Below, piece by piece: positions 49,214-62,748 of a DNA stretch of 64,000 nucleotides. Location: assembly GCA_002717245.1 (NCBI GenBank), contig PBCY01000018.1, positions 1,135 through 65,134 on the forward strand, in the 5' to 3' direction. The notes under the pieces are model-generated. The model made no database searches. It was not told the origin of the DNA and saw only the letters and a list, made by a program, of their open reading frames with translations. Within the stretch, counting starts at the first letter, position 1. The number at the start of each line of letters is the position of its first letter. The stretch comes from Pelagibacteraceae bacterium. Lineage in GTDB: Bacteria; Pseudomonadota; Alphaproteobacteria; GCA-002720895. Made by a program: the position numbers and the translations under genes.

Positions 49214-50185
49214 ATGAAATTAGTAAAAAATTTTTTTATTACGATTAATAGTAAGGGTTTTTTTGTAACTTTAAACGCTATAAAAAATTTTTTAATTATT
49301 TTAATAAATAATTTTTTTTCATTTTCAAAATTAATAAAAAAAAAAATATTTAATTTTGAAATGTATTTAGATCCAAAAGATAGAGGAATATCTAGAACTT
49401 TGCTTTTGTTTGGAAATAGAGAATTGGATCATAAAATAATATTAGAAACTGTTTTAAAGAAAGATATGAAAATATTTGATATCGGAGCAAATATAGGATA
49501 TTACGTTTTAATGCAGTCAAAATTAATAGGAAAAAAAGGAAAAATATTAGCGGTAGAGCCTGTTAGAAAAAATATGAAATTATTGAAAAAGAATTTAGAA
49601 CTAAATAAAAATAATATCACTAGAACAATCCAGGTCGCTGTAACTAATAAAAAGAAGTTTAAAAAATTTAATGGGTCAGAAATATTTTATACCACCTCTC
49701 ATTCGAATATTGGAAGATTAGATAATAAAATAAAGAATGATAAAAATAAAAAATTTATTACCAGTACACTTTATTTAGAAAGATTAATAAAAGATAATTT
49801 TAATCCTGATCTTATAAGAATGGATATAGAAGGCAGTGAGGTTGATATTTTAAATGATTTAACAGATATTAAACTAAAAAAATATCCTACTATATGTTTT
49901 GAAACACATATTTCTCAATATTTATTAAGAAATAAAAATAATAATTTACCTAAAATGGATAAAACATTAAGAAAAATGTTCAAAATAGGATATAGAGTAA
50001 GATTTGCTTCAACTTCATACGAATTAGGATCAAAAAAGTTAAAAAAATTAGGATATAAGCCATTCTATAAAAATATTAAAACAGATGATGTTAATAGAGA
50101 AATTTATATGAATTTAAAGAATAAAGATGCATTAAAATTAATTTGCTATGAAGGAGGATTGCGAACAATCTTAATGAGTCGTTAA
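49214..50185 (+). CDS. FkbM family methyltransferase
   Basis: Motifs FDIGANIGYY and LIRMDIEGSEVDIL. Confidence 0.8.
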   Translation: MKLVKNFFITINSKGFFVTLNAIKNFLIILINNFFSFSKLIKKKIFNFEMYLDPKDRGISRTLLLFGNRELDHKIILETVLKKDMKIFDIGANIGYYVLMQSKLIGKKGKILAVEPVRKNMKLLKKNLELNKNNITRTIQVAVTNKKKFKKFNGSEIFYTTSHSNIGRLDNKIKNDKNKKFITSTLYLERLIKDNFNPDLIRMDIEGSEVDILNDLTDIKLKKYPTICFETHISQYLLRNKNNNLPKMDKTLRKMFKIGYRVRFASTSYELGSKKLKKLGYKPFYKNIKTDDVNREIYMNLKNKDALKLICYEGGLRTILMSR

Positions 50186-53101: not shown

Positions 53102-54718
53102 TTAAAATTGAAAATATAAGTATGGAGATGGCTTTATATTTGCTAGCGATAAAAGGCAATAAAAAAATAATATATAAATAAAGTAAATACCAAAACCATT
53201 AATTTTAAATCTTTGAAACTGTGGAAATATTAATTTATTTTTTTCAATTTTGACAAAATTATTACTATTTTGAAATACCCATACAATCATAAACGATAGG
53301 ATGATAAAAATAGAGCAATCTTGGATTTGAAAAACTTTAAGAGCATAGTTTCCTTCAAAATTAAATCTAAAATAAGGTATATAGTTTAAAAAATTTTCAA
53401 AGTAGTTTTGCCAATACCCAACTAATTCATTTGGTAAAATAATATCTTTTGTAGGTATTAATGAATTATAAAATGATAAAGCAGAGTCCATACTTTGTGT
53501 TCTAAAAGGTACAAAAGCTAAAGTAACGGATATAAAAGTTAAAATTATTGAAAAAATATTGTAAATGTTATTGTTAGAAAAGACTAGATCAAACTTTTTA
53601 CATATTATTCCCCAGGAATAGCAAATCACTATATACATTCCATGTAAAGTCCCCCATAAAAGAAAATTCCAGGAAGCTCCGTGCCATAATCCAGAAAGAG
53701 AAAAAGTAATAAGAACTGGTAATAATATAGATAATAGAAAGTTAAAATTATTTAATTTTTTCACCATTGAAAATCTTAAAAAAAACATTGCGATGTTAGT
53801 AAATAGATAATCGTTAATAAATCTGGATAATGTAATATGCCATTTTTTCCAGAACTCAATAATATTTCTAGATTTAAATGGCGAATTGAAATTAAAGGGT
53901 AGATTTATTCCAAAAATTTTTGCTAAACCGATAGCCATATCACTATATCCGCTAAAATCGAAGTACATTTGAAATGTGTATGATAAAATTCCTATCCAAG
54001 ATTCTATAAACACTAGATTGTTTCCTTGTTCGTTAGATAAAAATATAGGGTCAGCGTATATTGATAAACTATCGGCTATTATTACTTTTTTAAATAAACC
54101 AATAACAAAAATACATACGCCAAGCGTTATATTGTTATTAAAATTATTTTTTAAAAAAGATAAATTCTCATATTGTTTTTTCATTTCTGCATGATAAACA
54201 ATAGGTCCAGCTATTAGTTGTGGAAAGAAACTAACAAAAATTGAGTAATTTAATAAACTATATTCTTTAGTTTTATTATTTGAGACATCAACCAAATATG
54301 CTATTTGTTGAAAAGTAAAAAATGATATTGCTATAGGTAAAACAATTTTTTCCCAATTTATTGATTTATCGAAAATAATTTCAATGTTTTCTATAAAAAA
54401 ATTTGAGTATTTAAAATACCCAAGTAAAAATAAATTAAATAAAATACCTATAATTAATAATTTTTTTTTTGATTTATATTCTTCCTTATAAGAAATCTTT
54501 TTTGCTAAAAAAAAATTAAACAAAATTGACCCAGTAATTAGAAAAATATATTTAGGGTTCCAATACCCATAAAAGAAGAATGATGCTATTAGAAGTATAA
54601 TTATGTAGCAGTTATTTTTAGATAAATTTTTAAACTTTATAAATGAAGGAGATAAATAATAAAAACTTATTACCAATGGTAAAAAAAGCAAAATAAACAA
54701 GTAAGAGTTAAAAAGCAT
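53102..54718 (-). CDS. MBOAT family membrane-bound O-acyltransferase (AlgI/DltB-like)
   Basis: Motifs FTFQQIAYLVD, AGPIVYH, FWKKWHITLSRFINDYLF, SGLWHGASWNFLLWGTLHG (catalytic His region). Confidence 0.9.
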   Translation of the reverse strand: MLFNSYLFILLFLPLVISFYYLSPSFIKFKNLSKNNCYIIILLIASFFFYGYWNPKYIFLITGSILFNFFLAKKISYKEEYKSKKKLLIIGILFNLFLLGYFKYSNFFIENIEIIFDKSINWEKIVLPIAISFFTFQQIAYLVDVSNNKTKEYSLLNYSIFVSFFPQLIAGPIVYHAEMKKQYENLSFLKNNFNNNITLGVCIFVIGLFKKVIIADSLSIYADPIFLSNEQGNNLVFIESWIGILSYTFQMYFDFSGYSDMAIGLAKIFGINLPFNFNSPFKSRNIIEFWKKWHITLSRFINDYLFTNIAMFFLRFSMVKKLNNFNFLLSILLPVLITFSLSGLWHGASWNFLLWGTLHGMYIVICYSWGIICKKFDLVFSNNNIYNIFSIILTFISVTLAFVPFRTQSMDSALSFYNSLIPTKDIILPNELVGYWQNYFENFLNYIPYFRFNFEGNYALKVFQIQDCSIFIILSFMIVWVFQNSNNFVKIEKNKLIFPQFQRFKINGFGIYFIYILFFYCLLSLANIKPSPYLYFQF

Positions 54719-54726
54719 TTTTATAT

Positions 54727-54963
54727 TTATATTTTTTTCTTAATATTTTTAATTAGATCTCCAACATTCTTCATTTCCACTATTTCATCTGCATTAAATT
54801 TTATTTTAAATTTATTTTCTATCGTAATAATAAGCTTAACATGATTTAAGCTATCCCAACTCGGTATATCTTTAGCGCTTGTTGAATTCTTTAATTTATG
54901 GTTTTTTAAATTAAAAATATTATTAAATATCTCAGATATTTTTTCTAAAATTTTTTTATCCAT
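54727..54963 (-). CDS. Acyl/peptidyl carrier protein (DltC/ACP-like)
   Basis: 78 aa. The phosphopantetheine attachment motif is WDSLNHVKLIITIE. It lies 8 nt upstream of the MBOAT gene. Confidence 0.8.
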   Translation of the reverse strand: MDKKILEKISEIFNNIFNLKNHKLKNSTSAKDIPSWDSLNHVKLIITIENKFKIKFNADEIVEMKNVGDLIKNIKKKI

Positions 54964-55042
54964 TTTTGTATTTTATATTGTTAGTTGTTTTTTAAAAATA
55001 ATAAAAATATATTAAAGCTTATAACTTATTATTTATTCTTTT

Positions 55043-56095
55043 ATGTCTGTTAATTTAAAAAAAAATCATTTTATTGTAACTTTTAGTATTTTATTATTAT
55101 TAACTCCTTTTTTTTATTATATTTTTTCTATATTTGTAATAATTAATTGTGAAAGATCAAAAGTATTTAAATATATATTTTACCCTATTCATGAAATATA
55201 TAAACCAGATAGAAAAGTTTTTTGTAAATTATCTAAATTAAAAAAACATGAAATAGTTTTTTTAACTGATTCAACAAATTTGGGTAGAGTTGATCAATCT
55301 ACTAAAGGTATATCTGGGTATTTAGAATATTTTTCCAATAAAAAAACCATTAGTGTAGATTTAGGTGGGGGAAATGCTGAAACTTTTGGTTATTTCTTCG
55401 ATAAAAGCCCATTTATTAATTTTTCAAATGTTAAGTATGTAATCTTAACTCTCAATTTAAGATCTTTTGCTGTTACTTCATATACAGCCGCTGAGTTTTT
55501 AGATAGTAAAGATCGTTATTTTTCTAAAATTTTTTATCAGCCATATAAAATTAAAAATTTAATAGAATTGAATAAATTAATATTTAATAGTCAATTATTA
55601 GAAACAAGAATTATTAATTGGGAAAAAGAAGATGCATTAATTAATAATGTAAAAATAGAAAAAAAAATTAAAACTGATAATAATGTTTTGAAAATTGATG
55701 AATATTTTAAAACTTATATGGGAAAAGTAGATTCAAAACACCCTGTATTATTATCAATTCTTAAATTAAAAAAAAAATTAGATAATATGGATATTAAATT
55801 GCTAGTTTATTCTACGCCTATAAATATCAGCGAGGCAAAGCAAGAATTTAAATTTAATAATAAATATTTTGTAAGTAATAAATCTTTCGAAGATAGAGTA
55901 GTTTTTAATTTATCAAATATTAAAAATTATTTTTTTTTGAATAATATTCCTTTTTTAGATCTTACTTTCCAAATAAAAAATATTAAAACTTTTTATGATA
56001 GAGATTATAATATTTCTAGTGAACATATAGATTATAAAGGGAGAAAATTAGTTGCCGATAAATTGAATCAATTTATTAATTTAATTGAAATATAA
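55043..56095 (+). CDS. Membrane-anchored hypothetical protein, SGNH/DltD-like acyl-transfer candidate
   Basis: It has an N-terminal TM helix. VFLTDSTNLG resembles SGNH block I (GDS). SEHIDYKGRKLVA near the C-terminus resembles block V (DxxH..G....A). Confidence 0.4.
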   Translation: MSVNLKKNHFIVTFSILLLLTPFFYYIFSIFVIINCERSKVFKYIFYPIHEIYKPDRKVFCKLSKLKKHEIVFLTDSTNLGRVDQSTKGISGYLEYFSNKKTISVDLGGGNAETFGYFFDKSPFINFSNVKYVILTLNLRSFAVTSYTAAEFLDSKDRYFSKIFYQPYKIKNLIELNKLIFNSQLLETRIINWEKEDALINNVKIEKKIKTDNNVLKIDEYFKTYMGKVDSKHPVLLSILKLKKKLDNMDIKLLVYSTPINISEAKQEFKFNNKYFVSNKSFEDRVVFNLSNIKNYFFLNNIPFLDLTFQIKNIKTFYDRDYNISSEHIDYKGRKLVADKLNQFINLIEI

Positions 56096-57908
56096 ATTAA
56101 TATTCAACGAACATTGTATGAAAAATAAAGAAAAAAATTATTTTGTTAATTTAAAGAAAGACCCTTCAAAATATTACGAATTATCAAGAAAAATTAATTC
56201 TTTAACAAAAGGTTTTGATAATATTAAAGTTGTTTTTTTGTCTAATTTTACTTTAGAATTATTGGAACCTTTTATCAAAGTTGAGTTAGCAAAAAGAAAA
56301 TTTAAACCTAATATCTCTTTTGAGCCTTATGATCAAGTTGAGCAAACTATATATAATTTAGATAGTAATATATATAAAAAAACTGATGCTATTGTTATTG
56401 CGTTAAAGATTGAGAACTTTTTTCCTGATATATTTAATGAACTAATTTACAGTGTTTCAAAAATTAATATTAGAATAAATGAAGTAAAAAAAAGAATATT
56501 AAAAATTATTAGTCAAATAAGGAAAAATAATTCTTATTCAAGAATAATATTATTTAACTTTAGTTTTGTAGAAAATGATATTCAAGGTTTTACTTCGGCG
56601 TCTTCAAAGATTAATTTAAATTATCTTTTACAAGAAGTTAATTCTTATTTATCAACATTAACAAAGAAGTTTAGTTCTTTATTTATTTTTGATTTAAATA
56701 AAGTGACTCAAAAAGTTGGATTAAATAATTTTTTTGATAAAAAACTTTTTTTATTAAGTAAAATGCCATTTTCTTTAGACGGACAGATTGAAGTTTCAGA
56801 TTTATTATCAAGATTTATAAGCGCAACAATAAAAGTTCCAAAAAAATGTTTAGTTTTAGATGCAGATAATACAATTTGGGGAGGAATTATTGGAGAAGAT
56901 AATATAGATGGAATAAAATTAGGAGAAGATTTTCCTGGTAATATTTATAAAACATTTCAAAGATATATTTTAAGTTTAAGAAAAAAAGGTGTTCTGCTCG
57001 CACTTGCAAGTAAAAATAATGAATTAGATGTTTTAAAAGTTTTTAAAAATCATCAAGACTGTTTATTAAAAAAAAAACATTTTTCAGCTTTAGAAATTAA
57101 TTGGAATGACAAGGCTACAAATATAAAAAAAATTGCTAAACATTTAAACATAGGATTAAATTCGATGGTTTTTTTTGATGATAATCCCGCTGAAAGAGAT
57201 CTAATAAAGAAAACTTTGCCTGACGTTAATGTTATAGAAGTAGCAAAAGATCCATTGTTATACGAAGTGAATATTGAAAATTCTGAATTTTTTGATCATG
57301 TTTTTATAACTAATGATGATATGAAAAGACCTCAAATGTATGCTGAGGAAAATAAGAGAAAAAATTTTTTAAAAAAGAGTTCCAGCATAGATAATTATAT
57401 TAAGTCGTTGAAAATAATTTTAGAAATAGGTTTTATAAATAAAGATTTTATTAGAAGATGTTCTCAATTAATAAATAAAACAAATCAGTTTAATTTAACC
57501 GTTAAAAGAAAAAGTGAAGGAGAGTTAGATAATTTAATAAAAAATGAATCTATTTTAATGTGGGTAAGGGCTAAAGATAAATTTGGAGATAATGGTTTAG
57601 TAGGAGTTATTATAGCAGTAAAAAAAGATAATATTGATGAATGGGTTATTGAAAATTTTTTACTAAGTTGCAGAGTTATAGGAAGAAATATAGAAAATAT
57701 TTTATTATATGAGCTGGTTAAAGAGTTAAAAAAAAAAAAAAGTAAATTTATAGTAGGTGAATATATAAAAGGTGAAAAAAATTTAATTGTTAAAGATTTT
57801 TATAAATCTCAAGGTTTTAAAAAACAAAAAGAAAATTTTTGGATTAAGAGTATAAAAGATTTTAAAGAAGATAAATTGAGAAAATTTATAAAGGTTGTTA
57901 GGAAATAA
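56085..57908 (+). CDS. FkbH-like HAD-IIIC phosphatase/acyl-loading enzyme
   Basis: LVLDADNTIWGGIIGEDNIDGIKLGEDFPG...LALASKNNE...FFDDNP is the HAD-IIIC/FkbH core. The C-terminal FLLSCRVIGRNIE carries the conserved FkbH Cys. An in-frame alternative start is ATG 56118. Confidence 0.8.
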   Translation: MKYKLIFNEHCMKNKEKNYFVNLKKDPSKYYELSRKINSLTKGFDNIKVVFLSNFTLELLEPFIKVELAKRKFKPNISFEPYDQVEQTIYNLDSNIYKKTDAIVIALKIENFFPDIFNELIYSVSKINIRINEVKKRILKIISQIRKNNSYSRIILFNFSFVENDIQGFTSASSKINLNYLLQEVNSYLSTLTKKFSSLFIFDLNKVTQKVGLNNFFDKKLFLLSKMPFSLDGQIEVSDLLSRFISATIKVPKKCLVLDADNTIWGGIIGEDNIDGIKLGEDFPGNIYKTFQRYILSLRKKGVLLALASKNNELDVLKVFKNHQDCLLKKKHFSALEINWNDKATNIKKIAKHLNIGLNSMVFFDDNPAERDLIKKTLPDVNVIEVAKDPLLYEVNIENSEFFDHVFITNDDMKRPQMYAEENKRKNFLKKSSSIDNYIKSLKIILEIGFINKDFIRRCSQLINKTNQFNLTVKRKSEGELDNLIKNESILMWVRAKDKFGDNGLVGVIIAVKKDNIDEWVIENFLLSCRVIGRNIENILLYELVKELKKKKSKFIVGEYIKGEKNLIVKDFYKSQGFKKQKENFWIKSIKDFKEDKLRKFIKVVRK

Positions 57909-57913
57909 TTATT

Positions 57914-59593
<1,680 letters not shown>

Positions 59594-60939: not shown

Positions 60940-61887
60940 TTAATTATTTCCCATTTTTTGTTTTTTATTTATACAAAATATATCAACAACTTCAGCTTTA
61001 ATTATTTTTTCAATGTCTTTAAAATTAATTTCTTTTTTTAAATTGTAATTAAAATAAATTTCATAATTTAATTTTTTTAAATAACTAAATATTTTTTTTA
61101 TAGAATCTTTTCTTAAAGCGTATTGATTTATTTCTATAATTAATTTAGGTGAATATTTCTTTAAAATTTTTTTCATTCCTAATAATGAGTAATACTCATG
61201 ACCTTCAACATCAATTTTTATAAAACTAACTTTATGATTAATTATATTATCTAATTTTATTAATTTAATTTTTTCTGATTTAAATTTAATTTTTTTTTTT
61301 TCAAAAATTTTTTTAAAAAAACTATATTTGAAGAAACTATAATTAGAAAGGTAGTTTTTATTTGTCGAACTACTTGCAAGGTAATCTTCTCTTTTGTATA
61401 TATTCTTTTCTTCATTTTTGTTTGAACAACCTAAATTATATATTTTTATATTATTAAAAGAGTTTATTTCTTTGTTTATTTGATTTTGTAAATATAGTTT
61501 TTTTATAGGTTCAATTGATATAACTTTTCCATTTTTACCAACAATATTTGATGCTATTAATGAGAAATAACCTATGTTACTTCCAACATCAATAAAACAT
61601 TGTTTTTTTTTGAGATTCTTTTTTATTATTTCTGTATTTGTTTCATCCCAGTTTTTTTTTGCATAAATAAATCTGTCAATAAAGCCATTTTTAGGATCTA
61701 ATAAAATTTTAATTTTATTAAGGTTTAAATAAATATTTTTAATTTTAGGTTTATTAAAAAATAAGCAGTTTAAATTTATCCATAATTTTAAAAATATTAT
61801 GTATAAGTCATTTATAAATTTAATATTAATTTCTTTTTCAATTAAACCATATTTAATTTTAGATAAATTTGATTTCATACAACACAC
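60940..61887 (-). CDS. FkbM family methyltransferase
   Basis: Motifs FIDVGSNIGYFSL and FIKIDVEGHEYYSL. The start may be the internal Met at 61878. Confidence 0.8.
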   Translation of the reverse strand: MCCMKSNLSKIKYGLIEKEINIKFINDLYIIFLKLWINLNCLFFNKPKIKNIYLNLNKIKILLDPKNGFIDRFIYAKKNWDETNTEIIKKNLKKKQCFIDVGSNIGYFSLIASNIVGKNGKVISIEPIKKLYLQNQINKEINSFNNIKIYNLGCSNKNEEKNIYKREDYLASSSTNKNYLSNYSFFKYSFFKKIFEKKKIKFKSEKIKLIKLDNIINHKVSFIKIDVEGHEYYSLLGMKKILKKYSPKLIIEINQYALRKDSIKKIFSYLKKLNYEIYFNYNLKKEINFKDIEKIIKAEVVDIFCINKKQKMGNN

Positions 61888-62040: not shown

Positions 62041-62748
62041 ATGAATAAAAAAATTTATATAGATTTTTTGGAATATTTAGTAGCTCAAAGAATGTTTAGC
62101 ACTTCTCAATTATCTCAAGATTTATTTGTAAGTTATTTTACAGAATTAAAAAAAGATGGTTTTTTTGTTGAATTTGGTGCAACAGATGGCATTACGCTTA
62201 GTAATACATTTATATTTGAAAAATATTGTAATTGGAATGGCATACTGGCCGAGCCTTTATCTACATGGCATGATAATTTATTTAAAAATAGAAAATGTAT
62301 AATTGATAAAAGATGTGTTTTTTCCAAAAGTAATTTAAAAAAAAATTTTGTTAATACTTATGAGATGCCTGAACTTTCTGGGTTAGAAAACGAATTACAC
62401 ATTGCTGATTTTAACGCTGAAGCTAGAAAAAAAAAAGAAATAGTAACTGTTGATACAGTAACTCTTGAAGATCTTTTAAAAGAACATAAAGCACCAGAGA
62501 AAATTGATTATTTATCTATAGATACAGAAGGCTCGGAATATTTGATATTAGAAAATTTTAATTTTAAATTATATGAAATTTCTATAATTACTATCGAGCA
62601 TAATTTTATAGATGATTTAAGAAATAAAATTAAATCATTGCTAGAAAAAAATAACTTTGTCAGGGTTTTTGAAAAAATAAGTCGTATGGATGATTGGTAT
62701 GTTAATAAAAATAATCCTGTATTAAAAAAATTACAACTAAAAGACTAG
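62041..62748 (+). CDS. FkbM family methyltransferase
   Basis: Motifs FVEFGATDGITLSNT and IDYLSIDTEGSEYLIL...ITIEHN. Confidence 0.75.
   Translation: MNKKIYIDFLEYLVAQRMFSTSQLSQDLFVSYFTELKKDGFFVEFGATDGITLSNTFIFEKYCNWNGILAEPLSTWHDNLFKNRKCIIDKRCVFSKSNLKKNFVNTYEMPELSGLENELHIADFNAEARKKKEIVTVDTVTLEDLLKEHKAPEKIDYLSIDTEGSEYLILENFNFKLYEISIITIEHNFIDDLRNKIKSLLEKNNFVRVFEKISRMDDWYVNKNNPVLKKLQLKD

What the first reader, a model, noticed from the sequence alone, without database searches (positions are those of the whole stretch)
53102..57908. Dlt-like acyl-transfer cassette with an FkbH-type loader in place of a D-alanine ligase
Four adjacent genes in a divergent pair look like one machine:
- an MBOAT (53102-54718, -)
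- a 78-aa carrier protein with a DSL phosphopantetheine site (54727-54963, -)
- a membrane-anchored protein with SGNH-like blocks I and V (55043-56095, +)
- a 607-aa FkbH-like HAD-IIIC enzyme that keeps the SCR cysteine motif (56085-57908, +)

In the Dlt pathway, DltA loads DltC, the MBOAT DltB passes the acyl group across the membrane, and DltD delivers it to teichoic acid. FkbH enzymes dephosphorylate 1,3-bisphosphoglycerate and load a glyceryl unit onto a dedicated ACP.

The combination predicts an ACP-dependent route that esterifies a periplasmic or surface glycan with a glycerate-derived (or other non-D-Ala) acyl group in a Gram-negative cell. I know of no characterised example of this four-part arrangement. 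It sits at the very edge of the glycan island, abutting groEL.
Basis: partly seen in the sequence, partly recalled or inferred. Interest (0 to 1): 0.8.

Follow-up and report, generated by a model that had tools for sequence, protein, structure and literature searches.

The report
FkbH-loaded, carrier-protein-dependent envelope acylation cassette
A marine Pelagibacteraceae genome carries a compact four-gene machine, also found in many other bacteria and some archaea, that looks built to load a small acid made from a glycolysis intermediate onto a carrier protein and pass it across the membrane to decorate a cell-surface polymer; this route has not been described experimentally.

Summary
All four genes are real and sit at the stated coordinates.
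- **MBOAT:** it has both conserved histidines and ends in YLYFQF, which matches the FXYXXF "acyl-shuttle" tyrosine motif.
- **Carrier protein:** a 78-aa ACP with an invariant WDS38 site.
- **Anchored protein:** it has an N-terminal membrane anchor and a confidently predicted SGNH fold, with conserved Ser77, Asn138 and His328.
- **Loader:** a full FkbH-family enzyme with intact HAD aspartates and the SCR cysteine.

The combination is not a local accident. I looked at the 80 genomic loci most similar to this FkbH.
- All 80 have an adjacent ACP.
- 37 have a same-strand MBOAT within 6 kb, usually followed by an SGNH-like gene.
- 35 of those 37 carry the shuttle motif, fused to the MBOAT in 26 and on a DltX-like microprotein in 9.

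Sinorhizobium meliloti and Stutzerimonas both carry the cassette.

The closest Pelagibacter-like relatives add a dehydratase-reductase gene at the same site. This suggests a glyceroyl version here and a lactyl version there.

The best reading is a Dlt-like acylation pathway with FkbH in place of DltA. The acyl group and the target polymer are inferred, not shown. I found no paper describing this system. It is a new variant of a known kind.

The parts
53102..54718 (-). MBOAT membrane acyltransferase, 538 aa, of the AlgI/PatA/DltB type. It has a C-terminal two-helix extension.
   Evidence: PF03062 at 1.3e-24; TIGR04091 (DltB) at 2e-52 but below its cut-off. H294 (WxxWH) and H346 (GLWHG) are invariant in 10 cassette MBOATs.
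53105..53122 (-). Last six codons of the MBOAT, Y-L-Y535-F-Q-F538. This is the predicted acyl-shuttle hexapeptide, with Tyr535 as the acyl acceptor.
   Evidence: The motif FXYXXF and its role are described in PMC12148441. Y535 and F538 are invariant. 26 of 37 cassette MBOATs end in FxYxxF.
54727..54963 (-). Dedicated acyl carrier protein, 78 aa. Ser38, in the WDS motif, is the phosphopantetheine attachment site. The gene ends 8 nt before the MBOAT start.
   Evidence: NCBIfam ACP models reach 7e-11; PP-binding scores 20.5 bits, which is borderline. W36-D37-S38 are invariant in 10 cassette ACPs. An ACP is adjacent to FkbH in all 80 census loci.
54964..55042 (.). 79-bp divergent intergenic region between the ACP-MBOAT pair and the SGNH-FkbH pair. 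In the closest relatives a MaoC-SDR gene sits upstream of the ACP gene on this side; it is absent here.
   Evidence: tblastn finds no MaoC gene anywhere in the window.
55043..56095 (+). N-terminally membrane-anchored SGNH-fold protein, 350 aa, predicted to be the periplasmic transferase. The helix spans about residues 7-34. Ser77 is the candidate nucleophile, Asn138 belongs to block III, and His328 to block V.
   Evidence: No curated family matches. It belongs to a family of 189 cluster representatives. S77 is invariant and D76, N138, R140, E327 and H328 are at least 90% conserved. The AlphaFold model has pLDDT 83 and pTM 0.83. Foldseek returns SGNH/GDSL esterases and DltD with probability about 1. 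A distant family member passes the Pfam DltD cut-off.
56085..57908 (+). FkbH-family loader, 607 aa from the TTG start or 596 aa from the ATG at 56118. Domains are FkbH_N (48-232), a HAD-IIIC phosphatase (253-376; D259, D261, S309, K343, D365, D366) and a C-terminal acyl-transfer domain with Cys529 in the SCR motif.
   Evidence: TIGR01686 at 2.5e-90 and 302.9 bits against a 146.65-bit cut-off; TIGR01681 at 2.8e-22; PF21211 at 2.2e-15. PDB 3slr matches at 1.7e-48 over the N-terminal and HAD domains.

Best explanation
The four genes encode one pathway that moves an acyl group across the inner membrane. It follows the Dlt/PatAB logic but uses a different loader. Every step below is inferred; none has been shown experimentally.

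1. The FkbH-like enzyme takes 1,3-bisphosphoglycerate. Its HAD domain (Asp259/Asp261) removes a phosphate, the glyceryl unit is held on Cys529, and it is then transferred to the phosphopantetheine arm on Ser38 of the dedicated ACP. This is inferred from family membership, because FkbH enzymes are described as making glyceryl-ACP.
2. Glyceryl-ACP docks on the cytoplasmic face of the MBOAT. His346 catalyses transfer of the acyl group to Tyr535 in the C-terminal YLYFQF hexapeptide on the periplasmic side. This is inferred from DltB/DltX and PatA.
3. The membrane-anchored SGNH protein takes the acyl group onto Ser77 and esterifies an extracytoplasmic polymer. Given the location in a glycan island, the target is most likely an LPS-type or capsule-type glycan, but it is unknown.

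Sister Pelagibacter-like lineages carry an extra MaoC dehydratase-SDR gene. That enzyme would convert glyceryl-ACP through pyruvoyl-ACP to lactyl-ACP. On this reading the window encodes a glyceroyl version and its relatives a lactyl version of the same decoration.
For: - **Gene identities and catalytic residues:**
- **Tight organisation:** the ACP stop lies 8 nt from the MBOAT start, and the SGNH and FkbH genes overlap or abut.
- **Same block in relatives:** the cassette sits at the same site beside groEL in related contigs.
- **Distant colinear operon:** FkbH-ACP-MaoC-SDR-MBOAT-SGNH is found in a contig whose SGNH protein is only 22% identical.
- **Census of the 80 nearest FkbH loci:** these span Verrucomicrobiota, Acidobacteriota, Planctomycetota, Pseudomonadota, Clostridia, Cyanobacteria and archaea. 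An ACP is adjacent in 80 of 80. A same-strand MBOAT lies within 6 kb in 37 of 80. About 26 of 30 examined loci have a 300-450 aa neighbour with a G-x-S block and a DxxH block.
- **Shuttle motif:** 26 of the 37 MBOATs end in FxYxxF. The 9 short MBOATs that lack it each have an adjacent microprotein of roughly 35-50 aa (measured stop to stop, 44-94 codons) ending in that motif. Only 22 of 25,649 small ORFs (0.086%) end that way by chance.
- **Complementary distribution:** loci with an MBOAT have heterogeneous flanks and rarely another acyltransferase. Loci without one sit among glycosyltransferases together with hexapeptide, GNAT or NAT acyltransferases.
- **Stand-alone operons:** the cassette is a self-contained four-gene unit in Stutzerimonas and on S. 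meliloti pSymB.
- **Chemical precedent:** glycerate esters on a bacterial exopolysaccharide exist in gellan (PMC9104527).
Against: - No biochemistry exists for any member of this cassette.
- The substrate of this FkbH clade is assumed from polyketide and non-ribosomal-peptide homologues.
- 42 of the 80 nearest FkbH-ACP pairs work without an MBOAT, so FkbH-ACP is not tied to this route.
- The SGNH protein departs from the canonical motifs. It has T-D-S rather than G-D-S and has no Asp three residues before His328.
- Sequence profiles do not link it to most of the partner proteins in other cassettes.
- Foldseek TM-scores are modest, at 0.5-0.67 against small SGNH enzymes and 0.34-0.39 against DltD.
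- Flanking genes give no consistent clue to the acceptor.
- The PP-binding score is just under the Pfam cut-off.
Confidence: 0.6

Rival explanations
1. There are two unrelated modules that happen to be neighbours. The MBOAT and SGNH pair is an ordinary acetyl-CoA-dependent O-acetyltransferase like PatA/PatB or AlgI/AlgJ. FkbH and the ACP feed a cytoplasmic N- or O-acyltransferase elsewhere in the glycan island, which acylates a nucleotide sugar.
For: 42 of the 80 nearest FkbH-ACP pairs have no MBOAT. They lie among glycosyltransferases with hexapeptide, GNAT or NAT acyltransferases. The window is a glycan island with many such genes. PMC12148441 reports that fused-motif MBOATs such as PatA use acetyl-CoA.
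Against: The four genes stay together as a contiguous same-strand block across phyla in 37 of 80 loci. They also do so outside glycan clusters, in Stutzerimonas and on S. meliloti pSymB. The ACP gene directly abuts the MBOAT gene in the window and in many loci. Loci with an MBOAT rarely contain another acyltransferase.
Confidence: 0.15
2. The machine works as proposed, but the acyl group is not glycerate-derived. This clade of FkbH-like enzymes would load a different small acyl phosphate, or another acid, onto the ACP.
For: No member of this clade has been assayed. The window FkbH is only about 30-38% identical to other homologues. The N-terminal FkbH_N domain has no known function.
Against: The protein scores twice the curated cut-off of the FkbH model and keeps every HAD and Cys motif. 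The FkbH enzymes and domains described in the papers read here are all assigned glycerate loading. The accessory MaoC dehydratase plus SDR in variant cassettes is what a 2,3-dihydroxyacyl-ACP would need to become lactyl-ACP; a comparable dehydratase-ketoreductase pair in FR901464 biosynthesis is recalled from my own knowledge and was not checked here.
Confidence: 0.15
3. The machine works as proposed, but the acceptor is not a surface glycan. It would instead be a membrane lipid or glycolipid, lipid A or core, peptidoglycan, or periplasmic glucans.
For: Many cassettes lie outside glycan clusters. An LPG_synthase_TM gene follows the cassette in L006 and lies nearby in Stutzerimonas, where LpxR is the next gene.
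Against: In the window and its close relatives the cassette borders glycosyltransferase, cytidylyltransferase and methyltransferase genes. This rival changes only the last step of the best explanation and is not exclusive of it.
Confidence: 0.1

Closest known systems
Dlt pathway (DltA, DltC, DltB, DltX, DltD) for D-alanylation of teichoic acids in Gram-positive bacteria
   Same: Both use a dedicated carrier protein as the cytoplasmic acyl donor, an MBOAT as the transmembrane transferase, a tyrosine in an FXYXXF hexapeptide as the shuttle, and an N-terminally anchored SGNH-fold protein as the final transferase. Nine cassette variants in other genomes even have a separate DltX-like microprotein.
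   Different: The loader is an FkbH/HAD-IIIC enzyme rather than an adenylating DltA ligase, so the predicted cargo is a hydroxy acid rather than D-alanine. The MBOAT, ACP and SGNH proteins all fall below the DltB, DltC and DltD model cut-offs. In the window the shuttle motif is fused to the MBOAT. The host is a Gram-negative alphaproteobacterium.
PatA/PatB, and also AlgI/AlgJ/AlgX and WssH/WssI: MBOAT-SGNH O-acetylation of peptidoglycan, alginate and cellulose
   Same: Both have an MBOAT with two extra C-terminal helices ending in FXYXXF, a separate periplasmic SGNH transferase, and a Gram-negative envelope.
   Different: PMC12148441 states that those systems lack a carrier protein and use acyl-CoA. 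Here a dedicated ACP and its loader are part of the operon.
FkbH/FkbJ-type glyceryl-ACP formation in polyketide pathways (methoxymalonyl-ACP, tetronates) and FkbH domains in aeruginosin-type NRPS
   Same: Both have an FkbH-family enzyme with HAD aspartates and an active-site cysteine next to a stand-alone ACP. The predicted product in both is glyceryl-S-ACP made from 1,3-bisphosphoglycerate.
   Different: The cassette has no ketosynthase, FabH-like enzyme, or FkbI/FkbK/FkbG partners. The predicted consumer of the acyl-ACP is a membrane MBOAT rather than a PKS or NRPS.
FkbH-ACP pairs in cytoplasmic glycan-decoration loci, for example the FkbH-domain gene cj1302 in the Campylobacter jejuni flagellar glycosylation locus
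   Same: An FkbH-type loader sits in a glycan locus rather than a polyketide cluster.
   Different: Those loci have no MBOAT or SGNH pair, and delivery is presumably through soluble acyltransferases. The link to the di-O-methylglyceroyl group on pseudaminic acid is from my own knowledge and was not tested here.

Membership tests
FkbH family (TIGR01686 / HAD-IIIC) | Score above the curated cut-off of the FkbH domain model | tested here: met
   302.9 bits against 146.65; TIGR01681 scores 80 against 35.75
FkbH family (TIGR01686 / HAD-IIIC) | HAD motif I DxDxT together with motifs II-IV | tested here: met
   D259, D261, T263, S309, K343 and D365/D366 are invariant in four cassette FkbHs that are as little as 31% identical
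FkbH family (TIGR01686 / HAD-IIIC) | Active-site cysteine in the C-terminal domain (SCR motif) | tested here: met
   S528-C529-R530 are invariant
FkbH family (TIGR01686 / HAD-IIIC) | Forms glyceryl-S-ACP from 1,3-bisphosphoglycerate | not testable with these tools
   This needs an enzyme assay. The only support here is that a dedicated ACP is adjacent in all 80 census loci.
Dlt pathway | DltA adenylating ligase that loads the carrier protein | tested here: not met
   None of the four proteins or the ten flanking genes shows an AMP-binding domain. The rest of the window was not scanned for one.
Dlt pathway | DltB orthologue (TIGR04091 equivalog cut-off) | tested here: not met
   178.7 bits against 375. 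It is a homologue, not an orthologue.
Dlt pathway | DltC orthologue | tested here: not met
   The DltC model NF003464 scores 17.8 bits against 68. Generic ACP models score higher.
Dlt pathway | DltD family protein (PF04914) | tested here: not met
   The window protein has no Pfam DltD match. DltD structures appear only at Foldseek ranks 16-25. One distant family member does pass the DltD cut-off.
Dlt pathway | Separate DltX microprotein carrying FXYXXF | tested here: not met
   In the window the motif is fused to the MBOAT C-terminus. Separate microproteins occur only in nine other cassettes.
MBOAT-SGNH envelope acylation systems (PatAB type) | MBOAT with a conserved catalytic histidine | tested here: met
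   H346 in GLWHG and H294 in WxxWH are invariant
MBOAT-SGNH envelope acylation systems (PatAB type) | C-terminal FXYXXF hexapeptide with an invariant Tyr | tested here: met
   The sequence is YLYFQF, with Tyr in place of Phe at the first position. Y535 and F538 are invariant. The motif definition comes from PMC12148441.
MBOAT-SGNH envelope acylation systems (PatAB type) | Separate extracytoplasmic SGNH-fold partner with a catalytic Ser and His | tested here: met
   The fold is, and S77 and H328 conservation. The extracytoplasmic location is inferred from the N-terminal helix and the Lys residues that precede it.
MBOAT-SGNH envelope acylation systems (PatAB type) | Acyl-CoA donor with no carrier protein | tested here: not met
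   A dedicated ACP and its loader are in the operon, in the window and in 37 census loci. The actual donor has not been assayed.
SGNH/GDSL hydrolase superfamily (350-aa protein) | Blocks I (GDS), III (GxN) and V (DxxH) | tested here: inconclusive
   The block I Ser (T-D-S77), block III Asn138 and block V His328 are present and conserved. The Gly of block I and the Asp three residues before the His are missing. No Pfam GDSL match reaches its cut-off for the window protein.

The most novel reading that the evidence does not exclude
This cassette would represent an unrecognised and phylogenetically widespread third branch of the MBOAT-SGNH envelope-acylation machinery.

- An FkbH loader diverts the glycolytic intermediate 1,3-bisphosphoglycerate onto a dedicated ACP.
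- The acyl group is exported through the tyrosine acyl shuttle.
- It then esterifies extracytoplasmic polymers with glyceroyl groups (four-gene form) or lactyl groups (form with dehydratase and reductase).

This would supply the missing enzymology for glycerate esters on bacterial polysaccharides such as gellan. In SAR11-type bacteria, gain or loss of the dehydratase-reductase gene would be a simple switch that changes surface chemistry between strains.
Probability: 0.45. Interest if true: 0.78.

Novelty: new variant of a known kind. Interest (0 to 1): 0.66.

Why it matters
Acyl decorations on cell-envelope polymers affect phage recognition, antimicrobial resistance, biofilm properties and host interactions. 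Only two donor routes are established for MBOAT-SGNH systems. One is acyl-CoA, as in PatAB and Alg. The other is D-alanyl-DltC loaded by DltA. A 2025 mechanistic paper states that the non-Dlt systems lack a carrier protein.

This cassette implies a third route. It is carrier-dependent but loaded from central glycolysis, and it would install hydroxy-acid esters. It is present from Pelagibacteraceae, among the most abundant marine bacteria, to Sinorhizobium, Stutzerimonas, Acidobacteriota, Planctomycetota, Clostridia and archaea.

It gives a concrete gene set to test for glycerate and lactate esters on polysaccharides, whose biosynthesis is, to my knowledge, unassigned. It can be tested directly in genetically tractable hosts.

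Tried and rejected
- **Curated families for the 350-aa protein:** Pfam and NCBIfam found nothing. A profile of 50 relatives against PDB sequences gave only one weak GDSL hit at 0.0063. The fold search was needed to place the protein.
- **Linking the SGNH-like partners:** iterative HMM searches recruited only L028. The partners are very divergent. Their likeness rests on the conserved G-x-S and DxxH blocks in a MAFFT alignment and on scattered GDSL, DltD, AlgX and DUF1574 hits.
- **Inferring the acceptor from flanking genes:** the flanks of 30 MBOAT-containing cassettes are heterogeneous and show no consistent neighbour.
- **Looking for a lost MaoC-SDR gene:** there is none in the window and no room for one in the 79-bp spacer.
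- **Polyketide, tetronate or methoxymalonyl reading:** rejected. No ketosynthase, FabH-like or FkbI/FkbK-type dehydrogenase was seen among the ten flanking genes scanned, which encode glycosyltransferases, a cytidylyltransferase, an asparagine synthase homologue, methyltransferases, GroEL, an RpoH-like sigma factor and an NHL-repeat protein.
- **Literature:** nine of the ten full-text searches probed for prior art or precedents (FkbH+MBOAT, FkbH+O-antigen, HAD-IIIC+polysaccharide, FkbH+polysaccharide, MBOAT+SGNH+ACP, HAD-IIIC and others). None found a description of this cassette. The tenth located the mechanism paper used above.
- **Paper I could not read:** Schultz et al. 2023 (Nat Microbiol), which may list MBOAT operon types, is not held.

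Full report
**Observation**

- 53102-54718(-), 538 aa
- 54727-54963(-), 78 aa
- 55043-56095(+), 350 aa
- 56085-57908(+), 607 aa

The ACP stop lies 8 nt from the MBOAT start. A 79-bp spacer separates the two divergent pairs. The 350-aa gene overlaps the TTG start of the FkbH gene by 11 nt. Relatives begin at the position of the ATG at 56118, which is the likelier start. Exact-sequence look-up shows that the window comes from a marine Pelagibacteraceae MAG. The public annotation there reads "membrane-bound O-acyltransferase family protein", "acyl carrier protein" and "hypothetical protein". G+C content is about 20-25% across the region.

**What the proteins are**

*MBOAT.* It matches PF03062 at 1.3e-24. 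The DltB equivalog model scores 2e-52 but stays below its cut-off, at 178.7 against 375 bits. In an alignment of ten cassette MBOATs, both signature histidines are invariant: H294 in WxxWH and H346 in GLWHG. So are Tyr535 and Phe538 in the last six residues, YLYFQF.

That hexapeptide corresponds to the FXYXXF "acyl shuttle" motif. In DltX and PatA, its tyrosine is acylated by the MBOAT and then hands the acyl group to the SGNH partner (PMC12148441).

*ACP.* It is borderline for Pfam PP-binding, at 20.5 against 20.8 bits. It matches NCBIfam ACP models down to 7e-11. It shares an invariant W-D-S38 site with ACPs from nine other cassettes.

*FkbH-like protein.* It passes the curated FkbH model at twice the cut-off, with 302.9 against 146.65 bits. 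It has an FkbH_N domain related to PDB 3slr at 1.7e-48. It keeps D259/D261/T263, S309, K343, D365/D366 and S528-C529-R530.

*350-aa protein.* It matches no curated family.
- An exhaustive profile search found 189 cluster representatives of similar length.
- Across 50 of them Ser77 is invariant, and Asp76, Asn138, Arg140, Glu327 and His328 are at least 90% conserved.
- With that alignment the AlphaFold model reaches mean pLDDT 83 and pTM 0.83.
- Foldseek against the PDB returns almost only SGNH/GDSL esterases, with DltD structures at ranks 16-25 and probabilities near 1. An earlier, weaker model gave the same picture.
- Individual family members touch Lipase_GDSL, DltD, AlgX and DUF1574.
- It has one N-terminal helix (about residues 7-34) preceded by lysines. 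This is the DltD/PatB topology, with the catalytic domain outside the cytoplasm. The topology is inferred.

Its motifs are atypical: T-D-S rather than G-D-S, and S-S-E-H rather than DxxH.

**Do the genes belong together?**

*Close relatives.* Proteins 50-81% identical to the 350-aa protein lie on Pelagibacter-like metagenome contigs at the same site, next to groEL-groES-rpoH. The order there is MBOAT, ACP, a 465-aa MaoC dehydratase-SDR fusion, then divergently the SGNH protein and FkbH. The window lacks the MaoC-SDR gene entirely.

*A distant relative.* A contig whose SGNH protein is only 22% identical carries a colinear operon: FkbH, ACP, MaoC, SDR, MBOAT, SGNH/DltD-like protein, and an LPG_synthase_TM protein.

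*Census.* I scanned one genome per GTDB species with the FkbH alignment. At least 587 loci encode a relative. The best 80 come from Verrucomicrobiota, Myxococcota, Acidobacteriota, Planctomycetota, Alpha-, Beta- and Gammaproteobacteria, Nitrospinota, Cyanobacteria, Clostridia, and Thor- and Woesearchaeota. Scripted searches of their ORFs gave these counts:

| Feature | Count |
|---|---|
| ACP adjacent to FkbH | 80 of 80 |
| Same-strand MBOAT within 6 kb | 37 of 80 |
| Of those 37, with MaoC and/or SDR genes | 10 |
| Of those 37, without (four-gene form, as in the window) | 27 |

In about 26 of 30 loci examined, a 300-450 aa ORF next to the MBOAT aligns with a G-x-S block and a DxxH block at the positions of Ser77 and His328. 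These partners are too divergent to be joined by HMM iteration.

*Shuttle motif.*
- 26 of the 37 MBOATs end in FxYxxF, typically FLYFQF.
- The nine short MBOATs (about 400-420 aa, DltB-sized) that lack it each have a same-strand single-helix micro-ORF beside them. These micro-ORFs are about 35-50 aa (stop-to-stop ORFs of 44-94 codons) and end in FIYQGF, FVYTGF, IVYKAF, VLYQSF, FAYQNF or FFYGAF.
- Only 22 of 25,649 small ORFs in these loci end with such a pattern, and nine of those 22 are these micro-ORFs.
- One further MBOAT is cut off by a contig end, and one shows no motif.

So FkbH-ACP cassettes exist in both the "DltX-separate" and the "motif-fused" architectures. This is hard to explain unless they use the tyrosine-shuttle mechanism.

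*Cultured hosts.* The cassette also occurs in cultured, tractable bacteria.
- In Stutzerimonas kunmingensis DSM 25974 it is a stand-alone MBOAT-FkbH-ACP-354 aa unit next to lpxR.
- In Sinorhizobium meliloti it lies on the 1.6-1.7 Mb megaplasmid. In strain 1021 that is NC_003078.1, positions 631,205-636,239. It is conserved at 95% identity or more in about 39 records.
- There the MBOAT ends in FLYQGF. The partner protein, mis-annotated as a "TonB-dependent receptor", has one membrane helix plus GGS and DPGH blocks.

**Mechanism proposed**

All steps are inferred from homology and context.
1. FkbH converts 1,3-bisphosphoglycerate to glyceryl-S-Cys529 and then to glyceryl-S-ACP on Ser38. FkbH enzymes with stand-alone ACPs are described as doing this in polyketide pathways (PMC7489565). 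FkbH domains are assigned glycerate loading in aeruginosin-type NRPS (PMC10143770).
2. The MBOAT, through His346, moves the acyl group to Tyr535 on the periplasmic side.
3. The SGNH protein takes the acyl group on Ser77 and esterifies a polymer.

The MaoC dehydratase and SDR in variant cassettes fit a conversion of glyceryl-ACP to pyruvoyl-ACP by beta-elimination, followed by reduction to lactyl-ACP. A dehydratase-ketoreductase pair doing this on glyceryl-ACP is known to me from FR901464 and bryostatin starter-unit biosynthesis. That rests on my own knowledge, and I could not retrieve a paper for it here.

The window would therefore encode a glyceroyl decoration and its sister lineages a lactyl one. 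Glycerate esters on a bacterial exopolysaccharide are chemically established in gellan (PMC9104527). I know of no assigned transferase for them, again from my own knowledge.

**Rivals**

The main rival is that the MBOAT-SGNH pair is an ordinary acetyl-CoA O-acetyltransferase, while FkbH-ACP feeds a soluble acyltransferase.
- In its favour, 42 of the 80 nearest FkbH-ACP pairs have no MBOAT. Their flanks are rich in GT4 and GT2 glycosyltransferases, polysaccharide deacetylases, and hexapeptide, GNAT and Antibiotic_NAT acyltransferases. FkbH-ACP clearly can serve cytoplasmic glycan decoration. The C. jejuni flagellar glycosylation locus also has an FkbH-domain gene, cj1302.
- Against it, the MBOAT-containing cassettes are contiguous same-strand units. 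They occur outside glycan clusters too, and their flanks are heterogeneous and rarely contain another acyltransferase.

Two weaker rivals concern only the first or the last step of the model.
- One is that the acyl group is not glycerate-derived.
- The other is that the acceptor is not a glycan. An LPG_synthase_TM gene next to or near two cassettes, and lpxR next to the Stutzerimonas cassette, hint at lipid targets.

**Comparison with known systems**

It works like Dlt, with a carrier-protein donor, an MBOAT, a tyrosine shuttle and an anchored SGNH transferase. It is not a Dlt system:
- there is no DltA;
- the MBOAT, ACP and SGNH proteins all fail the DltB, DltC and DltD models;
- the shuttle motif is fused to the MBOAT.

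Structurally it looks like PatA/PatB or AlgI/AlgJ, but those systems are described as lacking a carrier protein and using acyl-CoA. It shares its loader with polyketide glyceryl-ACP pathways but has no PKS partners. It is therefore a recombination of known modules into an arrangement that has not been described.

**Novelty and limits**

Nine of the ten full-text searches probed for prior art or precedents. None found a paper that describes FkbH, ACP and MBOAT as an envelope-acylation system. The tenth search found the mechanism paper. The one paper most likely to have catalogued MBOAT operon types, Schultz et al. 2023, could not be read, so prior mention cannot be excluded.

No biochemical step is shown. 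The acceptor is unknown. The census is biased towards the FkbH homologues most similar to the query.

I rate this a new variant of a known kind, with interest 0.66. My confidence is 0.6 that the four genes act as one FkbH-loaded, ACP-dependent MBOAT-SGNH acylation pathway. My confidence is somewhat lower that the cargo is glycerate.

Noticed in passing
L001 331-1728, L002 890-2287, L003 1112-2509, L004 1-795 (all minus strand): The closest Pelagibacter-like relatives carry a 465-aa MaoC dehydratase-SDR fusion upstream of the ACP gene, facing the divergent SGNH gene, at the same groEL-adjacent site. The window lacks it completely. This looks like strain-level variation in the acyl group within one glycan island.
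   Followed up: partly
L021 13991-14122, L028 5969-6118, L031 13993-14136, L037 6712-6849, L042 7130-7411, L056 9166-9327, L076 6304-6453, L077 13115-13258, L084 5008-5151: DltX-like single-helix micro-ORFs ending in FxYxxF lie beside every short cassette MBOAT that has no fused motif. The background rate of such endings is 0.086% of small ORFs. These micro-ORFs are probably unannotated in most genomes.
   Followed up: yes
L087 5733-10767 (S. meliloti megaplasmid); NC_003078.1 631205-636239 in strain 1021: Sinorhizobium meliloti carries the full four-gene cassette, conserved in about 39 megaplasmid records. The SGNH-like partner is annotated as a 'TonB-dependent receptor', which looks like a mis-annotation. 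The cassette lies next to the lsr (AI-2 uptake) genes.
   Followed up: partly
L007-L086 (the 42 loci with no MBOAT hit): About half of the nearest FkbH-ACP pairs have no MBOAT. They sit in glycan loci with GT4 and GT2 glycosyltransferases, polysaccharide deacetylases, hexapeptide, GNAT and Antibiotic_NAT acyltransferases, NeuB and Wzx-type flippases. Several have a large gene of about 400-440 aa, with similarity to the cassette SDR, directly after the ACP. This is probably a cytoplasmic route for the same acyl group.
   Followed up: partly
window 56085-56118: The listed TTG start of the FkbH gene overlaps the preceding gene by 11 nt. Relatives align from the ATG at 56118, so the protein is probably 596 aa.
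   Followed up: partly
window 57908-57914: The stop codons of the convergent FkbH and groEL genes are only 5 bp apart, which leaves no room for separate terminators. This fits a streamlined genome.
   Followed up: no
window 49214-50185, 60940-61887, 62041-62748: There are three FkbM-family methyltransferase genes, two of them beyond groESL-rpoH. Glycan-type genes therefore continue past the supposed edge of the island. Methyltransferases are also the most frequent flank family of MBOAT cassettes elsewhere (5 of 106 ORFs), so O-methylation of the glyceroyl group is conceivable.
   Followed up: no
L044 11923-17751 (Woesearchaeota MAG): One FkbH-ACP pair, with MaoC and SDR genes, is followed by two tandem MBOATs. 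Each ends in FIY(F/A)QF, and SGNH-like ORFs accompany them. This suggests one loader serving two transferase pairs in an archaeon.
   Followed up: no
L006 5877-6830; L053 3536-4528: An LPG_synthase_TM (PF03706) membrane protein directly follows the cassette in L006. One also lies nearby in Stutzerimonas, together with DUF2334 and a GT4 glycosyltransferase, and lpxR is the cassette's next gene. These are possible hints at a lipid or glycolipid acceptor.
   Followed up: no
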